Source of the DNA: Ginglymostoma cirratum
Lineage: Eukaryota
Assembly: GCA_024137785.1 (NCBI GenBank)
Contig: JAHRHZ010000095.1
Location: 3,691,640-3,755,639, forward strand
Length of the DNA: 64,000 nt
Reading direction: 5' to 3'
The position numbers were made by a program, and so were the translations under genes. Shown piece by piece: positions 1,029-63,439 of the stretch. The notes under the pieces are model-generated. The model saw only the letters and a list, made by a program, of their open reading frames with translations. It had not been told where the DNA came from and did not search any database. The first letter of the stretch is position 1. Each line of letters begins with the position of its first letter.

Positions 1029-1055
1029 AGTTTAAAAAGTCAACATCAATGGGAG

Positions 1056-1606
1056 ATAATAAGGTGTAGAGCTGGATGAACACAGCAGGCCAAGCAGCAT
1101 CAGAGGAGCAGGAAAGCTGACGTTTCAGGTCTAGACCTTTCNNNNNNNNNNNNNNNNNNNNNNNNNNNNNNNNNNNNNNNNNNNNNNNNNNNNNNNNNNN
1201 NNNNNNNNNNNNNNNNNNNNNNNNNNNNNNNNNNNNNNNNNNNNNNNNNNNNNNNNNNNNNNNNNNNNNNNNNNNNNNNNNNNNNNNNNNNNNNNNNNNN
1301 NNNNNNNNNNNNNNNNNNNNNNNNNNNNNNNNNNNNNNNNNNNNNNNNNNNNNNNNNNNNNNNNNNNNNNNNNNNNNNNNNNNNNNNNNNNNNNNNNNNN
1401 NNNNNNNNNNNNNNNNNNNNNNNNNNNNNNNNNNNNNNNNNNNNNNNNNNNNNNNNNNNNNNNNNNNNNNNNNNNNNNNNNNNNNNNNNNNNNNNNNNNN
1501 NNNNNNNNNNNNNNNNNNNNNNNNNNNNNNNNNNNNNNNNNTGTGTTCATCCAGCTCTACACCTTGTTATCTCAGATTCTCCAGCATCCGCAGTTCCTAC
1601 AATCTC
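1056..1606. mobile_element. Penelope-like element termini in inverted orientation flanking an assembly gap
   Basis: Left of gap ataataaggtgtagagctggatgaacaca...; right of gap its reverse complement tgtgttcatccagctctacaccttgttatc; degenerate 15-bp TSD caacatcaatgggag (1041-1055) / caatataaatgggag (1607-1621); same terminus as the GIY-YIG-coding copies at 38.0 kb and 45.5 kb. Confidence 0.8.
1142..1541. other. Assembly gap (400 N)
   Basis: Run of N. Confidence 1.
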
Positions 1607-1995: not shown

Positions 1996-3200
1996 AGAAA
2001 CTAGAAGGTGTTGGCCAATTGGGCCTTTGCGCCTACTCCACTGTTCAATGTGATCATGGTTGATCCTCCATCTCAACACCATACCCCTATTTTTTCTCCA
2101 CACCTTTTGATGCCTTTAATATCTAAAAATTTATCTATCTCTTTCTTGAACATTGTCAATGACCTAGCCCCCACAGCCTTCATAAAATCCATAGGTTGAT
2201 GCCACTCTGAGTGAAGAAATATTTCCTCACCTCATTCCTAAATGGACTCCCCAACCCAGATAAGCACCCTCTCTGCATATAGTCAGTCTACCCCTGTTAG
2301 AATTTTGTACATTTAATTAGATCCCAACTCATTCTTCTAAGCTCTACTGAATAAAGGCTCAGCCTAACTAATGTCTCCTCATATAACAGTTCTGCCATCC
2401 TCAGTATCAGCCTAGTGAATCTTTGCTGCACCCTTTTCATGACAAATATATCCTGTCTTAGGTAAGGAGACCAAAATTGGACACATGCTCCCGGTGCAAT
2501 CTTATCAAGACCCAATATAACTGCAGTAGGACAATCCTCCTTCTGAACTCAAATCCTCTTGCACAAAAGGCCAACACACCATTTGCTTTCCTAATTGCTT
2601 GCTGCACCTAGATAAATTCATTGACTGACGTAGAAGACGCAGATCCTTTTGTACATCCACATTTCCCAACGTATCGCCATTTAAATAATACCGTTTTTTT
2701 TGTTTATCATACTGAAGTGTACAACTTCACAGTTATCTATGTTGCATTGCTTCTGCTATATGCAAACTCAACCTGCCTAGATTGCCCTGAAGCTTCCTTG
2801 CATCCTCCTCATATCTCAGAAGCCCTCCAAATTTATATCATCAGCGAACTTGGAAATATTGCATTTGATTCCTTAATCCAGATTATTTAGAAATATCATG
2901 AATAGCTGGGGTTTAAGCAATAATTCCTGCCAGAACACTGCTAGCCACTGCCTGCCACCCGGAAAAAGACCCATTAATACCCACTCACTGTTTCTGGTCT
3001 GTCAACCAATTCCAAATCCATGCCAATACATTACCCCTAATGCCATGCGCTTCAATTTTGCCCATTAGCCTCTTAAGTGGGATCTTATCAAAAGTCTTCT
3101 TGAAATCCAAACACCACATCTACTAGTTCTCCCTTATTTATTCTGCAAGTTTACATCCTCAATAAACTCTAGTGGATTAGTTAGCCATGATTTCCTCTTA
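1996..3200 (-). mobile_element. CR1 LINE, 3' part of RT plus 3' UTR, decayed
   Basis: Minus translation CVQFWSPYLRQDIFVMKRVQQRFTRLI...RLSLYSVELRRMSWDLI, typical of the CR1 ORF2 C-terminus; frameshifts and stops. Confidence 0.9.
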
Positions 3201-27149: not shown

Positions 27150-27880
27150 GTCTAAATTGTTGCTCCCTGTTTCTTCTGCCATATTACATCACCTCACATT
27201 TCTCTGAATTATTTCTGCCCATTCCGCTAGCCTTTAGATATTCTGTTGCTGTCGATTAGCAGTATTCTCACTGTCAGTCAATTTGGAATCTTTGGTAAAT
27301 TTTGAAAGTTTATTTTATATCTCAATATCCAAATCACTTTCATATATCAAAAAAGTGGCTCCAGCACTGACCTTTTGGGAATAGCACTTCTAACAGCCTA
27401 CAGTCTGAAAACTAAGCATTTACCATGACACATATATTTTCTGTTATGAAGACAATTGTTTAAAATTCTATCTAATGCTGACCGATCTATTCTATGAGCC
27501 TCAATTTTGTTTATTTCCAGTTCTTACTAAATGTCATAGACCTGAAATGTGAACTGCTTTTTTCTGCATAAATGCTGCCTCATTTGCTTAATATTTCCAG
27601 GCTCCTATATGATACTTCATCAAACAGTTTTTATAATCTGTGTAAGACAGCATCCATTCCATTTCTTTCATCAGTCTTCGCTGTTACTTCTTTCAAAAAA
27701 AATCCGATTTGTGAAGCACGATCTGCCTTTTACAATTCCATGCTGGTATGCTTAATTAACACAAACCTCTCCAAGAGTCTGTTTTTGTTTCTTTGATCAC
27801 TGTTTCCAAAATCTTTCCCACGCTGATGGGAAACTTGTCTATAATTATTAGCAATGTCCTTATTCCTTGTCTTGAATTAG
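27150..27880 (-). mobile_element. Old CR1 RT fragment, with a small PLE piece at ~27530-27610
   Basis: Reverse-complemented QHGIVKGRSCFT motif (27710-27750) and ccccaaaaggtcagtgctggagcc (PQGSVLGP). Confidence 0.7.
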
Positions 27881-29044
27881 CAGGGCATGTTAATCAAACA
27901 GCTGAAAATCCAAATAAATTTTACTGGTTAGCACTCAACTAGTTTCTCTTTCAATGGTTGCCAAGAGTGAGTAATCCATCAAAATCCATGCTGAGCATTA
28001 TGGTCTCCATGTACATTAGATGAGCACTGATAAACCCTTGAAACTGCAGCTTAAGTCTCGAAGAACAATTCAGAATTTATAAAGACATAGATTAGGATTC
28101 AGCACGATGTGAGGCCAAAAGGCTGTTTGAGAGTTGGTTGATTATGTTCTTTTCAATAGGATGTAATTGCACAAATTAATTGTTATTTTCACATTTGTTA
28201 TAGTCTGTTCTACATTAACATTGAAAATTCATCTGGGCTAATGCAAACTATTATCTAATTGTGCGATCTTCAGTGATTTTGGGATTTGGAAAGACAATCG
28301 TACTGTGACAGTATCTGACTCCAGTTTAAGAACTTCTTATTATGGCAGGGAAGTCAGCAAAGCATACTTATCAAAAACTGGAATTCTACAGATGCTAGAA
28401 AGCTGAAATAACAAGAAATTTTAAGCAAATGAGGCAGCATTTATGGAGAAAAAAACAGTTTACATTTTAGTCTTACGACATTTAGTAAGAACTGGGATGA
28501 GGTAGAAAAAAATAGATTTTGAGCAAAGGGTGGTTGGGAAAAGGATGCAAAGAAGATTTGTGGTTGGTTGAAATATACTGCTTCCTAGTTCTAATGAAAG
28601 ATGTGGCGATTTGTCATGTTTTCTGCAGAACTGATGATCAAGAAACTCTCCCAACTTTGTCACCTGTCATATTGAATTGTCAGCTGAAAATCAACCACAG
28701 AGACTTTGCATGGGACTCAGATCCAGAGGTTCTGGCTGACAGAAAGGGGTGATCCACAAAAACTTATCTCATTGTGTATGAACACTTATACATCTGTTAA
28801 ACTGCTGATGTAGATTAGTCAGGACCTTGATTTGGAATGTGGTGATTTGGGGTTTCTTAGGAATGTCTGAGACCCAGATTTTCAAAGCAAAGTTAAACAT
28901 TGACAGGATTCCATCTACTGAACTTAAGTATTTTCTCCACCACAAATATTTCAGGAATTTGTCTCTACTTGCTAATTTATATCTTGAAATTACTTTGAGT
29001 ATCAGGTGAACATTCCTGCCACAACATTTGTTAAATATGTCCAA

Positions 29045-44990: not shown

Positions 44991-45143
44991 AACAAAAACG
45001 GAAGTTGCTGAAAAAGCTTAGCAAGTCTGGCAGCATCTGTGAAGAAAAATCAGAGTTGACATTTCAGGCCCAGTGACTCTTCCTCAGAACCAATGGTAGC
45101 TAGGAAAATAGTTTTTCCCAGTTTTTCTTTTGGCTTCTATTTG
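44991..45143 (-). mobile_element. PLE family 2 terminal fragment with perfect 15-bp TSD
   Basis: gtacacaaacccatg at 44976-44990 and 45144-45158; hammerhead-like gttctgaggaagagtcactgggcctgaaatgtcaac on -. Confidence 0.85.
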
Positions 45144-45546: not shown

Positions 45547-46218
45547 TGATAACAAGGTGTGAAGCTGGATGAACACAGCAGGCCAAGCAGCATCATAGGA
45601 GCAGGAAAACTTGACGTTTCGGGCCTAGACGCTTCATCAGAAATGGGGGAGGGGTAGAGGGTTCTGAAATAAATAGGGAGAGAGGGGGAGGCAGATAGAA
45701 GATGGATTGAGGAGAGGATATGTGGAGAGGAGGCAGACAAGTCGAAGAGGCGGGGATGGAGCCAGTAAAGGTGAGTGTAGGTGGGGGGGTAGGGAGGAGA
45801 TAGGTCAGTCCAGGGAGGACGGACAGGTCAAGATGAGGTTAGTAGATAAGAGATGGGGGTGGGGCTTGAGGTGGGAGGAGAGGATAGGTGAGAGGAAGAA
45901 CAGGTTAGGGAGGTGGAGATGAGCTGGGCTGGTTTTGGGATGCGGTTGGGGGAGGGAAGATTTTGAAGCTTGTGAAATCCACATTGATACCATTGGGTTG
46001 CAGGGTTCCCAGGCTGAATATGATTTGCTGTTCCTGCAGCCTTCGGGTGGCAACACTGTGGCATTGCAGGAGGCCCAGGATGGACATGTCGTCTGAGGAA
46101 TGGGAGGGGGAGTTGAAATGGTTCGCGACTGGGAGGTGCAGTTGTTTGTTGCGAACTGAGCGCAGGTGTTCTGCAAAGCGGTCCCCAAGCCTCCGCTTGG
46201 TTTCCCCGATGTAGAGGA
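45547..46218 (-). mobile_element. PLE family 1: GIY-YIG endonuclease region, UTR and hammerhead terminus
   Basis: LYIGETKRRLGDRFAEHLRSVRNKQLHLPVANHFNSPSH...RRLQEQQIIFSLGTLQPNGIN; minus atttCTGATGAagcgtctaggcccGAAAcgTCaag at ~45610-45644. Confidence 0.92.
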
Positions 46219-46479
46219 ATTTTTTTTGTCTTGTGCTAATCAAAATTAGGATGCAAGAAACAAACCTGAAAAAAGACAGATGCTATTTATACAGCACAAC
46301 AAGAGGGTGCTGATTGTTCCATCCTCCACAAATGCTTCTGCTTTTGTCCCCTCCTTTACACCCCCACATCCTTTGGCAGTGTTCCTACTTCCCCTCACAG
46401 AACTTCTTTAACAATCGACTGATACTTCCCCAGGATTGTACTTCAATGAGCAGTCCCTAGCAATAACTGACCAGACGCC

Positions 46480-47557: not shown

Positions 47558-47679
47558 CCGAGATAAAAGGTACTGCAGATGCTGGAGAATCCGAGATAAC
47601 AAGCATGGGGCTGGATGAACACAGCAGGTCAAGCAGCATCATAGGAGCAGGAAAACTTGACGTTTCGGGCCTAAACCCT
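47558..47679 (-). mobile_element. PLE family 1 terminal fragment
   Basis: actgcagatgctggagaatccgagataacaagcatggggctggatgaacac...gacgtttcgggcctaaaccct. Confidence 0.88.
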
Positions 47680-48864
47680 CCTCCAGGGACATCCTTTACT
47701 GGCTGTGAGCCATACAGGCCTGCCTCAGACACCACTATCTTTGTATGGATTTAGTTGCCTGGGCAACCTGGCTGATTGACATTCAATCCATTTCCCTTGC
47801 TGTTGCCTAAACAGAGAACTTCATTGTTGCCATGCAAAGTGAAGCTAGCTTCCTTTTCCATGATTTCTACACCATTACTTCAGTCTGGAAGCCAAATTAT
47901 CTACTGGAGAACAGATATTTGTGCAGCTGAGACAATCTGTAAGCCCCTTTCAACCAGAGTGTCACAGGTCACTATTATGACTGCCTAAATTTCCATCACA
48001 ACACTTCGTTATTTTATGAAAGACATTAGTCATGCAATAGAAATGATATAGGGTCCAGCTGTAGGACTTTTTCATTCTTTAAGAATTTGGCACTCCTTTT
48101 AAGTTATTATGAAGGCAGTGGGGCCTGCAACCTTAATTATAGTTACATATTTAGGGAGTAGAGATCAAGAATAGTTACGGCCATGTAAGAAGCCAAAGTT
48201 GCAGAATCCTCTAAGTAGAAAAAGACTATTGATTGTTAATGGGTGTATTTTCAAGTGTGTATGTGTGGGTGTGAGTATGAGCATACATGCATTTGTATGT
48301 GATGCCACACATAGTTGAAGATCTGTGAAAGGTGTCTGAGGTGCGAGGCATGTCTATGAAAGGTGCACTAGTATGAAGTACATTTCATGCTTATATATAG
48401 GTATGTATTGTAAAATTATTAATTGTACAAAAAGGTAAAAACTGTGTTATAAGAGTAACACTTCAATGTAAAACTTGAAGTTTGTCAACTTTTCCTGATC
48501 TCGTGATCATATATCCAAGTGGAGAGGTGACAGTTGTTTTTTGCACTTGTTTGGCAACTTTTTGTCTTACTACCAATTGCTGTCTTTCAACATCATTGTA
48601 AAATGATCTTTAGCATTTTATTTCTCACTGTTTTACATGCATGATTGCTTCATCATACATTGGTCTGAACTGGCTTCTGTTCCTTCCCAATATAACCCGA
48701 TGATCAGGAATTACTTTGTATGTTCTGGGTTGGGTCCATTTTCTGGACACTGCTGGTATGCAAGTATTTGGATTTGGATTTCTGACTCACACTGTCTGAT
48801 CAGTGTACAGTTTTGTTAGTTCTCTTCCTACTCAATTACATTTGCTAGGGAAGCAGTACGAAGC

Positions 48865-52991: not shown

Positions 52992-55363
52992 CCACCCCCT
53001 TGAGAAGAAAAGAACCATCATGATGAAAAGTTGGTGTTTTTTTTTCTCAAAACCTTAACACCATTACTACTAGATCCGTAGGTCATTTCATACTAATTCT
53101 ATATGCATATATAACATTGAACACAAAGGTTCATATTTGATATACACATTTTTATTTTTAACCCACAACAACATATCCGCAATAACATTGTCACAATCTG
53201 CAAATGTACAGTCTATAAATTTAATGCTTGTAACATCAGACTCCAATGAAATAGTCTGGTGTTCTTGAATTGAAATCTTCAAAAATGTCAACAGGTTATG
53301 ATCAGCATACACAACCATCTGTGATATATTGTTTGCCACATAAACATTAAAATGTTATAAGGCCAGTACCAAACTCATTCAGTCCTTTTCAACAGCTGAA
53401 TATTTTCTCTGGTGGATATTGAGTTTCTTTGAAAAGTAACTGATTAGTTTTCAATTCCACAATGATTGTCCTGTAACAACATAGCTCCAGCCCCTAGATC
53501 ACTTGCTTCAATGGCGGACTTCAAAGGGTTTCAAGAAATTTGGCAAGGCTAAAACTGGTGCAGCAGTTAACACTGTTTTTAAATTCTCAAATATCTCCTG
53601 GCATGGTTCTGTCCATCAAAATCTTCTATTCTCCTTCAACAAATCCGTCAGTGGTGCCGCCAGGCTACTAAAGTTTGATATATACTTCCAGTAGGTCCAT
53701 TCAGTCCCAAAAATCATAGCACCTCTTTCTTCGAGGATGATGTTGGAAATTCCTCGATGGCTTTTGTCTTCACATTCCTCCGTGTCATCGTTCCATGTCT
53801 GAAGTTTTGCTCTAAGAATGTCTCTTCCCCCTTCTCGAATTCTGTTTTTGCTAAATTTATGACCAGCTTCACCTTCTGTAGTCTCTGGAAAAGGTCTGCT
53901 AAATGCACCATATGATCTTTCCATGAGTGGTTAAAGATCACTAAGTCATCTCTGTAGATGTCACAAGTATTGAATTCTGCCACAACTCTGTTCATAAGTC
54001 TTTATAATGTGGCTGGTGCATTCTTCATTCCAAGGGGCATTACTTTAAATTGATACAGCCCATTTGGGGGTTACAAATGCAGAAAATTCTTTCGCTCACT
54101 CTGACAAAGGTGTTTGCCAGTAACTGCAAAGTAAGTCCGACTTTATGATGTAAGTGGTTTGTTCAACATTTTCCACAGTCCTCCAGCCTTGGAATTGGGT
54201 ATGAGTCTGATTTAGTCACAGTGTTAACCTTTTGATAATCTATGCAGAATCATTGAGCACCATCAGGTTTGGCAACCAAAACAACTGGCGAACTCCACTT
54301 GCTCTGCCTCGACTTGGCGATGTTTTCTTGGAGCATTGCTTCCACTTTCTTCTGTACCTGTGCTGCTTTGAGAGGATTAAGCCTATAGGGGTATTGTTTC
54401 ATTGGAACAGCATTCCGTTGTCAACCTCATGTACTATAGTATGAGTCCTCCCCATTCTTTTTCTACAAATGTCCTGATAGTGCTGCAACAAGTCTTTCAA
54501 TTCAGTTCTCCATTCCTGAGACGGATAGCTTACTACCCTACCTCATTCTTTAAGCACTTCGTCATTATTCAACTTATTCTGAGTCAAATTGAAATCCACA
54601 TCATCTGCATTTGATTCCTCACTCCAAGTGGCAGTGACTAATACCTGTTTCTCCAGTTCCCTTTCCTGTCAGAGTAAGGTTTCAGCATGTTCACATGACA
54701 TACCTGGCAATTTTTTTTAATCTGGCATCTTTACGAGATAATTCATCTGACTTAGCTTCTTATCAATCTGATAGGGACCCCAAAACCTTTGAAGGGATCT
54801 CCTACCACTGGTAACAATACCAATACTTTATCCCCATGAGCAAATGTATGAATTTTTGATTTCTTATCTGCTTCTATCTTCATTTGATACTGTTCCACAT
54901 TCAAGTGCTGTCTAGCTAATTCACTACACTGTTTAATCTTTCTCTCACTTCAGATACATAATCTAACAATGAGATCTCTGACTTCAGGCCTATCAACTTT
55001 TCCTTAATTAATTTTAAACGCCCTCTTACTTTGTGTCTGACTATCAATTTAAATTGGGTAAACTGAGTTGATTCATTTGGAGTATCTCCAATGGCAAACA
55101 ATATAAATGGGATACCATTGTCTCAATCATTTGGGTAATCCTGGCAATAAGCCCTCACCATTGACTTTAGGGTCTGATGCCTTTCCAATGTTCGCTGCGA
55201 TTCAGAATGGTATGCATTCGATTTAGAGTGTTGGATGTCTAAACAATCCATGATCTCCTTACATAATTTGGCCATAAAATTGGACCCTTGGTCTGATCGA
55301 ATCTCACTGGATAATCCATAATGGGTAAAGAAAGCAAGCAACTCCTCCACAATACCTGGGAAG

Positions 55364-55553
55364 CAAGCATGGGGCTGGATGAACACAGCAGGTCAAGCAG
55401 CATCATAGGAGCAGGAAAACTTGACGTTTCGGGCCTAAACCCTTCATCAGAAATCAGATTTCTGATGAAGGGTTTAGGCCCGAAACGTCAAGTTTTCCTG
55501 CTCCTATGATGCTGCTTGACCTGCTGTGTTCATCCAGCTCTACACCTTGTTAC
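55364..55553. mobile_element. PLE-derived fold-back palindrome with two opposed hammerheads
   Basis: Perfect 82-bp arms 55374-55455 / 55457-55538 around a single A at 55456. Confidence 0.92.
55458..55493 (+). ncRNA. Minimal hammerhead ribozyme motif (mirror copy on - at 55419-55454)
   Basis: attt-CTGATGA-A-GGGT-ttag-GCCC-GAAA-CG-TC-aagt: intact core, stem I attt/aagt, stem II, palindromic ACGT. Confidence 0.78.
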
Positions 55554-55684
55554 CAAAGTTAAACAGATTTTTTTCACTTCTTACCTAAATTTTATTTTAA
55601 CGATCTCAGACTCTAATCCACAGGTCTGGTTAAATCTGCCCAAGTTATTCAGGTCCATTCAGATCCCATACACGAACTGGCCAT

Positions 55685-59005: not shown

Positions 59006-60839
59006 TGAATTATATCATTTCAACTCTGGTAACATCCATATAAATCTTTCTGCACTCTCTCTAGTGCTTAATTTCTTTGCAGTGTGGAGATGTACGAGTA
59101 CACAATGTGGTGTAAATAGCACAATGTAAAAATAATATTACTTCCTTTATCTAGCATTTTTTTCCTCCACAAATAAACTACAGACCTTTGTGGCCTTATC
59201 AACATATGCTGCTATTTTTAATGATTTATTCAGCTGTAATCTCTGATCTCTTATCATTTATTCCCACTGTTTCCTACCTTTGAAGAACTAGGTGACCTCT
59301 ACATATCTGCTACCGACATGAACACCTCACATTTCAATTATTTTTCCAACCCCTCTGCAGGTCTGTTTTTTTACTCCCCGCACTTTTAGTTTGTTCTACA
59401 AAATCATTAGTTAAATATCCCCTTTGCTGGCGTTGTTGCCTACCTTTGCCTATAAGAGATTTTTCGTTTAAAACTCAACGGTGCTATACAAATACAAGGG
59501 AGCAACCCTGTATATCAGTTAATCTAACTGGGAATTTGTAGGCAGTGCATGCTGAAACCAGTTGCTCTGTTGTAAAGTTTGTTTTTGAACTTGCATTGTA
59601 CTGTTTAAATAAGCAGGGACAGAGTTAATTGATCTCCGATGAGTGACTGAATATTAGACCACTACCATTAACATGAAAGTCTTATTTGCATATTTAGAGT
59701 CCAAATTATTTATGCATAAGGTGAACAATAGTAGTTCTAGTGTGGAAACTTGTGGGTCACAATTTCCTACTTTGTGTCAGTCTAAAAAATATTCCTTCAC
59801 CACTATTCTCTGATTTCTGTTTCATAGCAACCTTTCAACGCATTCTGCTACCTGACCTCCGAATGCAGACATTTGTACTGACTTTCTGATGTGGCACATG
59901 TGACGCAACTGTAAGAAAAATTTGCAATTACTTTAAAATAGTTGGAGAATCTGTGATTGTTTTTAAATGTTTGAGTGGGTCTTTTAAAAGTTTAACCAAT
60001 TATGAAAGAATTATCTCATAATATTCTTGAATAATGAAGGTATTTGTCCAAGTGATCTAGTAATACTTGACCTCAAAGCAAGACCAACAAGAAGGAAGTT
60101 ACAAGATGAAAGCCATGTGGCTAGACACAAGGCAAGGTGAAAGAAAGCAGAATATGAGACAGAAGCTGATCGGTATGTACATGCAGACATAAAGAAAAGG
60201 CAGACAAAGAAAGAAAAAGGAACACAAAATTTGACAGTGGAGAAGCCAGTAAATATCTCTACAAAAGATCAGTGTTCTGTTTGACAGTAAGAATTCTAGA
60301 AGCTCTTGGGGAAGTGATATATGTGTGAATTAAAAGGGAACAAAATCCTAAAAGTACTGAGAATAACTCCGGGAGATAACATATTAGAGAACAAAATCAC
60401 AAATTTCCTAGTTCACCAGTTGAAAAGGAACTCTGAAAATCCGTGTCAGAACTGGTACGTCCCAAGTGTAAAAGAGTTCATTTGTACATGCCTCATTGGT
60501 GTTCAGGGACTTTGAATGGAAGGTTACTACCATCGAATGTGTCTCAAGGGCTGTATTGGTATATAGGATCTCCTGTCTTCCTACAACATCACAGACCAAA
60601 TCAGAGAATTTTGAAACAAAATGCATGTGATGCCATATGTGCACAGCAAATGATGCTCTGCTGATAGTTGTACAAGACATATATTTATTTCTTTGACTAC
60701 TTAAAGTGAAATTTACTTACTTTTATTTGAAATGTCATTGGTTCATTAGTTTATGTTTAATTTATGTTGGTTATAATTGTGTTAAGATAGAAGTTACTAA
60801 AAGTGAAATCTTGCCAGAGATTTGTTTATTTAGGCAAGT

Positions 60840-62680
60840 GGAAACATAGGAACAGGAGTATGCCATTGAGTTGTTTCAGCCTGCTCCACCTTTCAATTAG
60901 ATCTTGGCTGAAAATCTAACTCAACGCCACTTTCATACTCTATTACAATATCCCTTGTCATCATCAATCCACAGAAATCTATCGACTTTTGTCATGAACA
61001 TTGAGAATAGAGATGATTAATATATGCATTATCATTTGGGATTTGGACCTTAAAATTGAGGCAGGTCTTTTGGTTTTAGTTCTGTAAAGGTAATTTTTTT
61101 GTTTAAGTGACTAGAAGGTTATTTTGAATAACGAATTAAAATCATTGCTTCCAAGGTGAAACGCAACTTTAGCTATTCCTAGGTAGGCACCTATGTGATG
61201 TTAATGGATAAAATGCCAATACTGCTGAGTTTATGACAGATAGGGAAAACAAATCAAAGCCAGTAGTTTAGTTTTGGCTTTAGTACAGAAGGTTCAAGAT
61301 TTCAGTTCTGGGAAATCAGTCACCCAAGTAAATCCGTGAAATATACATGTTATGGAAGTATGAAGAAGTTTTCAAGATATATGAACTCAAAAGAGATTTA
61401 GGCCAACAGAATTTAAAACAAAAACGTTTCTGCCAGAAAACCCAGAACTATCTCAGCAGTCCAACAAAATGAAATGAACTGGCAAGAGTCAGTTAAGAAA
61501 GAAAGAATTGAAATAGGTGTGATATTTTTCTTGAATCAAAAATCTGTAAAAGGATAGTTTTGGGAAGCAGGTTGAAATTTTGTTTTCCTATTTAAATTTC
61601 TTATTTTTCTCTTCCTTTGTGACAAACTTGTTACTTTTGTAATCTTGTGTGAATATGTTCAATGACTAACTTCTATAGTAATCAACTATAAAAAGGAAAC
61701 ATGTGATCTATATATATAGGTTTCCTTCCAGTATTAGACGCGTTCAGGACTGCCGTCAGCTAGGATCGTAAAAATATGTTCCATAATTAACCTTTCACAA
61801 CCTTCTGGGGTAGAGAATTCCAAAGATTCACCAGGCACTGAGTGAATAAATGCTTCCTAACTTTATTCTTAAATAGCCAACATCTTAATCTGTGATTATT
61901 TCCCCTGGTTTGAGACACACCAACCAGAGGAAAAATTCCATCAACAGTCACTCTATCATCCCTTGAAAAAATTTTGTATGCTTCCGTGAAGTCATCCCTC
62001 ATTCTTTGAAACTCTAAGTAATACAGAAGTAGTTTCTTCAAGCTCTCCTGATAAGACAATCGTGCCAACTTCATAATTAACCTAGTGAGCCTCCTTCAAT
62101 AATGCAGAAAATCATAACACTCCAGGTAAGGTTTCACCAAGGTTCTATATTATTAGGGCCATTCTATCTAGGTTAGGACAATTATATTTCCGTACTCAAA
62201 TCCCATTGCACTCAAGGTCAAAACATCGTTTGCCTTCCTAATCACTTGCTGCACTTGCATGCTAACTCTTAGTAACATATGAACATGAACAGGGAGGTCT
62301 TTTTGCAGATGCACACTTCCTAATGCTTCATCATTTAAGAAATATTGTCTCTTTTCTACCTATATAAATAATCTTGCATTGATTTACATCATATTGTATC
62401 TGCCATATTCTAGCCCATTCATTTAGTTTGTTCATGTTATCTAAAAGGTTCCTTGCATCCATCTTACAATTTATGTTCTCATCCAATTTTGAGTCATCAG
62501 GAAACTTGAAAATGTCACAACTGGAGTCCAGATTCAGGTCATTTATACAGATAGTAAAATTTGACAGCTGTAAACAAGACACTGACCGTTTCAACCAGTC
62601 TGTAACAGGTTGAAATGCTGAGAATTTTACATTTGTCAGTGATCTCTGTTTCTGTCTGTGAACTAATTCTCAATCCATGT
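60840..62680 (-). mobile_element. CR1 LINE split by a ~780-bp insertion
   Basis: FTICINDLNL...FKFPDDSKL; LSYQESLKKL...LWNSLPQKVV (61787-62074); 3' UTR resumes at 60840-61010. Confidence 0.85.
61012..61785 (+). mobile_element. Non-coding insertion in CR1, probably a solo LTR
   Basis: Interrupts a collinear CR1; no ORF; ends ...cagctaggatcgtaaaa, resembling an eroded LTR ...CGTAACA end. Confidence 0.4.
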
Positions 62681-62703
62681 TTTCTCAACAGGATTATAAT
62701 ATA

Positions 62704-62887
62704 AAAATAAAAATAACTGCAGATGCTGTAAATCAGGAACAAAAACAGAAGTTGCTGAAAAGGCTCAACAGGTCTGGCAGCACCGGTGAAGAAAATATCA
62801 GAGTTAATGTTTCGGGTCCAGTGACCCTTCCTCAGAACACTCCAGGTAAGGTTCTGAGGAAGGGTCACCAGACCCGAAATGTTAATT
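62704..62887. mobile_element. PLE family 2 insertion with inverted hammerhead arms and TSD
   Basis: Arms 62804-62838 / 62851-62885; TSD aggattataatata (62690-62703) / aggcttataacata (62888-62901). Confidence 0.88.
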
Positions 62888-63439
62888 AGGCTTATAACAT
62901 ACTTTACTAATAAGCACTTGAATAGTGAATCCGCCCTTGCCTCTGTTTCATGTACCCATTATAATAAAGAATAAATAATCCCAGCTAATATATGGTAGTA
63001 CAAGTGGTGTCTGACTGCAGAATGAGTAAGCTTGTCCTAGTGAACACATCTGCAGGAGCTGTCTCCATCTCACATTTCTGTCTCAGAGCCATTGAACTGA
63101 AACATGAGTTGGCAAGACTCCATTACAAATGGGAGAAGTGCCACTTGGATAATTTGGTCATATCTCAGCAAGATGCAGGATCAAAATGGGATTAGTGTAT
63201 CTGATATTTACAGCGTAAGGGGATCCTAAGATAGGTGAGATAGAGACCAATAATGCACAGAAAATAATCCTATCCAAATGGTACAATATAAGTATAACGT
63301 GAGGATAAAAGCTGATTTTTTTTTGGCTGTGTGAGCGATTCTCACTCCAAGGTCAAGTTATTTGACCATACCTTACAAAATGTGCACCCAGAGAAGTACT
63401 GGCATTCCAAAGCTGCCTTTTTCGGTCAAGTATGGAATT

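What the first reader, a model, noticed from the sequence alone, without database searches (positions are those of the whole stretch)
62116..62887. Penelope fold-back insertion whose loop exactly matches DNA 720 bp upstream
Seen: the PLE insertion 62704-62887 has a 14-bp TSD and inverted arms separated by a 12-nt non-PLE spacer. The spacer plus 3 nt of each arm, aacactccaggtaaggtt (62836-62853), is identical to 62116-62133 inside the neighbouring CR1. It matches this copy's own variant (ccaggtaaggtt), which differs from the CR1 copies at ~30455 and ~58040. The terminal aac and gtt are shared by the donor and the PLE arms, i.e. 3-nt microhomologies at both junctions. Inference: during integration the PLE reverse transcriptase or a repair polymerase jumped onto nearby chromosomal DNA, copied 12 nt, then jumped back to copy its own cDNA and made the inverted arm. 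That would be a record of how PLE inverted termini form, which is incompletely understood. The donor CR1 also appears to have a short deletion/substitution immediately left of the copied segment.
Basis: partly seen in the sequence, partly recalled or inferred. Interest (0 to 1): 0.8.

Follow-up and report, generated by a model that had tools for sequence, protein, structure and literature searches.

The report
Retroelement palindrome patched with nearby DNA
A short jumping-gene insertion forms a hairpin whose 12-letter loop was copied from an older repeat 720 bases away, a repair scar of a known kind that hints at how this element family makes its mirror-image ends.

Summary
62836-62853 equals 62116-62133 exactly and occurs nowhere else in the window (expected about 2e-7 within 2 kb). 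The donor is a decayed CR1 copy: the 18-mer reads K-P-Y-L-E-C where related CR1 proteins read R-P-H-L-E-Y, and the four other window copies match only 7-11 of 18. All four arm mismatches are CpG transitions, so the palindrome is old DNA and not an assembly artefact. Corrections: the TSD is 12 of 14; the donor's 39-nt loss cannot be tied to the event.

The loop is a locally templated insertion with 3-nt microhomologies at both joins, the SD-MMEJ / polymerase-theta pattern. A direct-orientation donor on the left fits better if the right arm already existed and its 3' end copied the exposed plus strand. I favour two arms sealed head-to-head during integration (0.45) over jump-then-fold-back (0.3) or a later centre break (0.2). 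It is one event; no genome-wide test was possible. Snap-back and templated inserts are known for R2 and L1; ten literature searches showed no Penelope case.

The parts
61690..62680 (-). Old, decayed CR1-type LINE fragment (reverse-transcriptase C-terminal region) that holds the donor; ends approximate
   Evidence: 59% identical (554 of 938 aligned bases) to the CR1 copy near 2040-3060; minus-strand frame reads LVKPYLECYDF against LVRPHLEYCVQF in CR1 proteins
62095..62123 (.). Interval that contains the junction of a net 39-nt loss in the donor CR1, with about 20 nt that fit neither side of the alignment
   Evidence: breakpoint not pinned; no local exact source longer than 10 nt for the unaligned stretch
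62116..62133 (+). Donor 18-mer: AAC microhomology, 12 copied bases, GTT microhomology; 62112-62115 adds 3 of 4 further matches
62690..62703 (+). Left copy of the target-site duplication
   Evidence: 12 of 14 match to 62888-62901; 7 of 20000 by chance
62704..62737 (-). Optional 'tail' of the Penelope-like element (start of first-strand synthesis); right boundary approximate
   Evidence: absent from the copies at 45.0k, 29k and 10k; a similar tail precedes the copies at 47.6k and 1.6k; tail described in PMC11167929
62738..62838 (-). Pseudo-LTR segment, element sense on the minus strand; its inner 35 nt (62804-62838) are the left arm and carry a hammerhead-like core motif
   Evidence: close to the sister copy at 44991-45090; nhmmer E 0.002-0.05 to termini of the family that carries a GIY-YIG fragment; the hammerhead reading is by eye from a recalled motif, Rfam gave no hit
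62839..62850 (+). 12-nt spacer (hairpin loop) copied from 62119-62130
   Evidence: not seen after the equivalent position in 10 of 10 other element ends printed
62851..62885 (+). Right arm, inverted copy of 62804-62838
   Evidence: 31 of 35 complementary; the four mismatches sit at two CpG sites
62886..62887 (.). Two unassigned bases between arm and TSD
   Evidence: read from the sequence
62888..62901 (+). Right copy of the target-site duplication

Best explanation
A Penelope-like element inserted at a staggered cut (14-nt TSD). SHOWN: the insert is a 135-nt antisense arm with tail, a 12-nt copy of the local CR1, and a 35-nt inverted arm, with 3-nt microhomologies at both ends of the copy. INFERRED: during integration two DNA ends faced each other, both ending in the same element sequence (CAGAAC-3'): the first cDNA on the left end (+ strand), and a minus-strand end carrying the short arm on the right (a second cDNA primed from the other target strand, or the second strand being filled in through an earlier fold-back). 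Two identical 3' ends cannot pair. The left end was resected by about 575 nt or more, leaving the + strand single-stranded. The right-hand 3' AAC paired with GTT at 62131-62133, a repair polymerase (polymerase theta-like; enzyme not shown) added about 15 nt and let go, and the new 3' GTT paired with the AAC at the tip of the first cDNA (up to 6 of 7 pairs); fill-in and ligation closed the palindrome. This is trans SD-MMEJ sealing a head-to-head junction: the spacer was written after both arms existed.
For: Local, copy-specific template: exact unique 18-mer; K, Y, C at positions where 15, 13 and 16 of 16 CR1 proteins have R, H, Y (K seen 0, Y 1, C 0 times); 7-11 of 18 to four other window copies. 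Primer repeat plus insert plus microhomology repeat is the SD-MMEJ motif, and loop-out junctions are equally explained in trans (PMC5728401, passages); in C. elegans most mappable inserts are direct copies primed across the break and snap-back is a minor class (PMC5068794, passages). Strand logic (established: resection leaves the 3'-ended strand): on the left end that is the + strand, the template this model needs. A Poseidon protein cleaves and extends both target strands in vitro and is modelled as a dimer (PMC11167929). In this window the palindrome at 55357-55555 has arms identical for 82 nt but different outer ends, each matching a different family variant, which plain self-copying does not give. 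Other copies of the same subfamily appear to stop near the same base (10k, 29k), so two cDNAs could end alike. TSD, arm and 18-mer divergence are of one age class: chance of an intact 18-mer 0.10-0.42.
Against: Single event. The distance is far beyond the usual range: about 85% of C. elegans inserts prime within 10 bp and SD-MMEJ was scored within 30 bp. The site is not the nearest or best microhomology: 39 GTT sites and 20 AAC-GTT pairs lie in 60838-62700, four pairs closer than the donor. The first priming step would rest on 3 bp, while the 6-of-7 match sits at the junction that the rival model uses first. The right arm starts inside the pseudo-LTR, not at a terminus or tail, and shows no microhomology to the target end, which a second reverse transcription does not readily explain; exactly symmetric inner ends come for free with fold-back. 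A preserved TSD fits a protected target end, yet the model needs long resection of the other end. The 55k evidence may be gene conversion or assembly collapse (this assembly has a 400-N gap in another palindrome). The 34 nt after the native end of the sister copy (45110-45143) have no local exact source over 10 nt within 3 kb, so local templating is not the rule here.
Confidence: 0.45

Rival explanations
1. [quoted passage not shown] The jump created the arm.
For: 6-of-7 match at the first junction; symmetric inner arm ends need no coincidence; snap-back onto the cDNA, less often onto nearby target DNA, and jumps to a second RNA are documented for R2 (PMC11371274 and PMC11331408, passages); self-priming was proposed for Penelope inverted junctions (PMC3846280, passages); the short arm ends at an arbitrary internal point, as aborted copying would.
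Against: Needs the minus strand about 575 nt inside the left flank; a 720-nt loop-out is far outside described SD-MMEJ. Four other direct sites in 60838-62700 match 6 of 7 as well, one with a perfect 6-nt run. No host exon was found to indicate a minus-sense transcript (150 of 166 ORFs of 70 aa or more scanned). The 3-bp stem competes with the element's own hairpin (whole intermediate -4.6 kcal/mol). Short fold-backs at 9 of 11 element ends tested were no better than background (p 0.09-0.94).
Confidence: 0.3
2. Later repair: the element inserted as a near-perfect 70-bp palindrome, which later broke at its centre (cruciform or hairpin nicking) and was rejoined by templated end joining, which wrote the spacer. 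The loop then says nothing about integration.
For: Same sequence outcome and same favourable strand geometry as the best explanation, with no need for a second cDNA. Centre breakage of palindromes with small asymmetric repairs is established (recalled; no paper read on it). The 55k palindrome has a 1-nt centre, so near-perfect palindromes do get inserted.
Against: Needs a second rare event at the same place; 35-bp arms are short for extrusion (recalled); the 99-nt-arm palindrome at 55k has kept its tight centre; ages of TSD, arms and 18-mer cannot be told apart.
Confidence: 0.2
3. Not local: the spacer came from another CR1 copy or CR1 RNA, is carried by a master element, is chance, or is an assembly artefact.
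For: CR1 copies are abundant in this window; a genome-wide count of the 18-mer and raw reads could not be checked; the assembly has a gap inside another palindrome.
Against: E about 2e-7; three non-synonymous changes at a conserved motif; 13 of 18 to a four-copy majority (read); spacer absent at 10 of 10 other ends; independent CpG decay in both arms and two TSD mismatches show aged DNA.
Confidence: 0.05

Closest known systems
SD-MMEJ / polymerase theta templated insertions (PMC5728401, PMC5068794; passages)
   Same: Short insert copied from the flank, with a primer repeat at one end and a newly made microhomology at the other; direct orientation, readable as loop-out or trans.
   Different: Template about 720 nt from the junction instead of within 10-30 nt; the junction joins two inverted retroelement arms; enzyme not shown.
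R2 snap-back and extra-template 5' junctions (PMC11371274, PMC11331408; passages)
   Same: The cDNA 3' end region is followed by antisense element sequence and by sequence from near the target before the 5' junction forms.
   Different: R2 snap-backs are scored as opposite-strand matches; here the genomic piece is a direct repeat lying between the arms; the element is Penelope-like and a 14-bp TSD is kept.
Penelope-like inverted pseudo-LTRs with palindromic junctions (PMC3846280, PMC8557442, PMC2377424; passages)
   Same: Inverted 5'-truncated copy next to the main copy, tail at one end only, TSD; mechanism stated to be undefined.
   Different: In the passages read, junction palindromes are attributed to self-priming and the captured host spacers (0.9-1.5 kb, Adineta Pen1) have no mapped local donor; no short loop traced to a neighbouring locus.
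L1 twin priming, local inversions and templated genomic inserts (PMC11702581 and its 2026 version; passages)
   Same: Both target ends can be extended; inversion junctions are sealed by end joining with microhomology; templated genomic DNA occurs in inserts; resection of hundreds of bases to kilobases is inferred.
   Different: Twin-primed L1 segments abut with 1-10 nt overlap or gap; here the 35-nt arm duplicates the end of the first cDNA completely.

Membership tests
Penelope-like element (EN+), short derivative | Belongs to an element with a GIY-YIG endonuclease / RT ORF | tested here: inconclusive
   No ORF in the 184-nt insert. Indirect: nhmmer E 0.002-0.05 to termini of a window family whose copy at 45908-46282 has a GIY-YIG match, E 3.2e-4, 21.4 bits against a cut-off of 22.6.
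Penelope-like element (EN+), short derivative | 30-40 nt tail at one end only | tested here: met
   About 34 nt at 62704-62737, absent in three sister copies, similar tail in the 47.6k and 1.6k copies.
Penelope-like element (EN+), short derivative | Hammerhead ribozyme motif in the pseudo-LTR | tested here: inconclusive
   Core motif and stem II seen by eye (motif recalled); stem II predicted but folding z-scores not significant; no Rfam hit.
Penelope-like element (EN+), short derivative | Inverted 5'-truncated copy at the 5' end, and TSD at an AT-rich site | tested here: met
SD-MMEJ / TMEJ templated insertion | Insert identical to flanking DNA, with primer repeat and microhomology repeat of at least 1 bp | tested here: met
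   12-nt insert with 3 nt on each side
SD-MMEJ / TMEJ templated insertion | Template within about 30 bp of the junction (operational criterion of PMC5728401) | tested here: not met
   720 nt. It works like SD-MMEJ but fails the distance criterion.
SD-MMEJ / TMEJ templated insertion | Dependence on polymerase theta | not testable with these tools
   Needs genetics.
R2-type snap-back junction | Antisense element sequence follows the cDNA end | tested here: met
   35-nt inverted arm
R2-type snap-back junction | The arm was primed by the cDNA's own 3' end | tested here: inconclusive
   The arms carry no private non-CpG variants that would show their ancestry.
L1-type twin priming | Inverted segments abut (small gap or overlap) and the outer junction shows microhomology | tested here: not met
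   Complete 35-nt overlap; no microhomology at 62885-62888.

The most novel reading that the evidence does not exclude
Penelope inverted termini arise because both target strands are primed, giving two cDNAs that end at the same base near the hammerhead motif, and host end joining seals them head-to-head; the loops are then a fossil record of strand and length of resection at each integration. Genomes rich in these palindromes would let one map the unsolved late steps of Penelope retrotransposition from sequence alone.
Probability: 0.25. Interest if true: 0.7.

Novelty: new member of a known kind. Interest (0 to 1): 0.45.

Why it matters
How Penelope-like elements form inverted termini is named as an open question (PMC8557442, passages). 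This copy shows that the inversion junction can hold a short insert traceable to one nearby locus. The side, orientation and distance of such donors separate self-priming from two-ended priming plus end joining, so the observation turns the question into a genome-wide count. On its own it is one repair scar of a class known from R2, L1 and polymerase theta repair, unusual mainly for the 720-nt reach.

Tried and rejected
1) Reciprocal exchange: the unaligned stretch left of the donor resembles the element's tail, but 35-67 of 337 random window tiles score as well; rejected. 2) Second break at the donor: the net 39-nt loss has its best breakpoints at 62115-62118, but the score is flat over 62095-62120 and the pairwise alignment shows several other gaps of 13 nt or more in this 1-kb copy; inconclusive, and it may predate the event. 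3) Routine short fold-backs in other copies (45.0k, 29k, 47k) looked suggestive by eye but 9 of 11 ends were at background; not used as support. 4) Local sources for other junction fillers: no exact match over 12 nt in 10 of the 11 stretches tested within 3 kb; the 12-nt one near 47.7k matches another element copy. 5) Host gene and transcription direction: no host exon among 150 of 166 ORFs; only RT, GIY-YIG, integrase and weak sub-threshold matches; unresolved. 6) Rfam: 5 matches at E up to 1, all below gathering score, none a hammerhead. 7) The alternative placing of the deletion just after 62127-62131 scores lower (35.7-36.7 against 40.25). 8) No eukaryotic DNA collection was available, so the genome-wide spacer test, the 18-mer count, reads and orthologous sites stayed unchecked; the bacterial, phage and plasmid collections were not used as they do not bear on this.

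Full report
Observation. The 18 bases at 62836-62853 are identical to 62116-62133 and occur only at these two places on either strand of the window. Allowing one mismatch the match is 21 of 22. Under an order-3 Markov model the expected number within 2 kb is 1.7e-7 for the 18-mer and 4.4e-4 for the spacer alone, so both the spacer match and the two 3-nt microhomologies exceed chance. Of 91 non-low-complexity exact matches of 14 nt or more in the window, 12 lie within 3 kb, and this is the only direct one of 18 nt or more under 1 kb. The arms (62804-62838, 62851-62885) are 31 of 35 complementary; the four mismatches fall at two CpG sites, one transition per site per arm. An assembly or library fold-back would give identical arms, so the structure is aged genomic DNA. 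The TSD is 12 of 14 (7 of 20000 by chance); a sister copy has an exact 15-bp TSD.

What the parts are. The window is repeat-rich with no host exon found (150 of 166 ORFs of 70 aa or more scanned). The insert resembles several other window segments. It is weakly similar (nhmmer E 0.002-0.05) to the termini of a second family whose copy at 45908-46282 encodes a GIY-YIG fragment on the minus strand, just under the Pfam cut-off. It has a tail of about 34 nt at one end only, as described for Penelope-like elements (PMC11167929, parts 1-2 of 4 read; PMC8557442, passages). The assignment is therefore indirect but consistent. It fixes the polarity: the + strand from 62704 to 62838 is first-strand cDNA primed at 62703. 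The arms span a hammerhead-like motif (recalled motif, by eye; no Rfam hit; folding not significant).

The donor is this copy. On the minus strand the donor reads LVKPYLECY. Of 42 CR1-like proteins examined (the best 50 of 120 listed hits, keeping those with at least 60% identity), 16 covered the motif: R in 15, H in 13 and Y in 16, with K 0, Y 1 and C 0 times at those positions. The four other window copies match 7, 9, 11 and 11 of 18. The spacer is not the element's own continuation: it follows none of 10 other ends printed. A non-local source is thus unlikely, though the genome-wide count could not be run.

The donor's deletion. The copy lacks a net 39 nt against four others. The best single breakpoints are 62115, 62117 and 62118, at the left edge of the copied piece, but scores hardly differ across 62095-62120, and about 20 nt there fit neither side. 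The copy has other sizeable gaps. A resemblance of the unaligned stretch to the element's tail is at background (35-67 of 337 tiles). I cannot tie the deletion to the event.

Mechanism. [quoted passage not shown] Sequence alone does not give the order, but strand geometry is informative. In the reverse order a minus-strand 3' end that already carries the short arm reads the + strand, which resection leaves single-stranded, adds about 15 nt, and re-pairs with the tip of the first cDNA. The authors of PMC5728401 state that all loop-out junctions can be explained in trans. The second end could be a second cDNA, since a Poseidon protein cleaves and extends both strands in vitro, or a second strand filling in through an earlier fold-back. 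The palindrome at 55357-55555, whose arms are identical for 82 nt but end in two different family variants, points to independently templated arms, though conversion or misassembly could mimic it. I give this 0.45.

Jump-then-fold-back keeps 0.3, helped by R2 snap-back and extra-template junctions (PMC11371274, PMC11331408, passages) and by the self-priming proposal for Penelope palindromes (PMC3846280, passages). A later break at the palindrome centre gives the same sequence (0.2); ages cannot separate it. Short fold-backs are not demonstrably common here: 2 of 11 ends tested were significant (62k and 55k), the rest at background, and a third palindrome near 1048-1578 has a gap at its centre.

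Novelty. Local inversions, inverted duplications and templated genomic inserts at L1 sites are described (PMC11702581 and 10.1101/2024.12.14.628481, passages), as are short fold-back duplications at yeast breaks (PMC11724301, abstract). PMC2718515, PMC2377424 and 10.64898/2026.07.22.740005 (passages) added background only. Ten searches of the held library listed no report of a Penelope inversion loop mapped to a nearby donor; most subscription journals, the older Penelope papers among them, are not in that library, and no supplements were read, so a prior description is possible. I file it as a new member of a known kind. It is real and clean, and it suggests a cheap genome-wide test of an open question, but it is one event that three mechanisms can produce. 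Interest 0.45.

Noticed in passing
window 55357-55555: Near-perfect Penelope-like palindrome (99-nt arms, 1-nt centre). Inner 82 nt identical, outer ends match two different family variants (left like the copy at 47.6k, right like those at 38k and 35k); no TSD found. It sits beside an integrase-core fragment (55126-55392 minus, rve E 0.0024, below cut-off).
   Followed up: partly
window 1048-1578: Another inverted-arm copy with a 400-N assembly gap at its centre, tail on the right arm only, and a possible 15-nt TSD (13 of 15).
   Followed up: partly
window 27517-27597 and 28415-28495: Two Penelope-like termini, 89% alike, with their 3' ends facing inward around 817 nt of host DNA; the reverse of the usual arrangement. 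Could be two linked insertions or capture of a fragment; no TSD found.
   Followed up: no
window 44991-45143: Sister copy with an exact 15-bp TSD and about 34 nt of unexplained sequence at its 5' junction, including a weak 9-bp fold-back (p 0.13) and no local source over 10 nt.
   Followed up: partly
window 47562-47715: Tail-bearing copy whose 5' junction is followed by a 12-nt inverted match to element sequence about 100 nt further in (seen in the copy at 45760-45771); possibly a small twin-priming-like inversion.
   Followed up: no
window 62559-62640: About 80 nt inside the donor CR1 align poorly to another CR1 copy and form an imperfect nested palindrome (arms 62582-62599 / 62605-62622, 78%); origin unknown.
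   Followed up: no
window 62150-62165: About 15 extra bases in the donor CR1 just right of the copied segment; no local source over 8 nt.
   Followed up: partly
window 62838, 10140, 29760, 55453: Several copies appear to stop within a few bases of the same point, the 5' edge of the hammerhead-like motif, suggesting an RNA 5' end or a reverse-transcription stop; read by eye, not tested.
   Followed up: no
window 62883-62885: The short arm ends about 2 nt past the position where a minimal hammerhead would cut (site placed from a recalled motif); may be coincidence.
   Followed up: no
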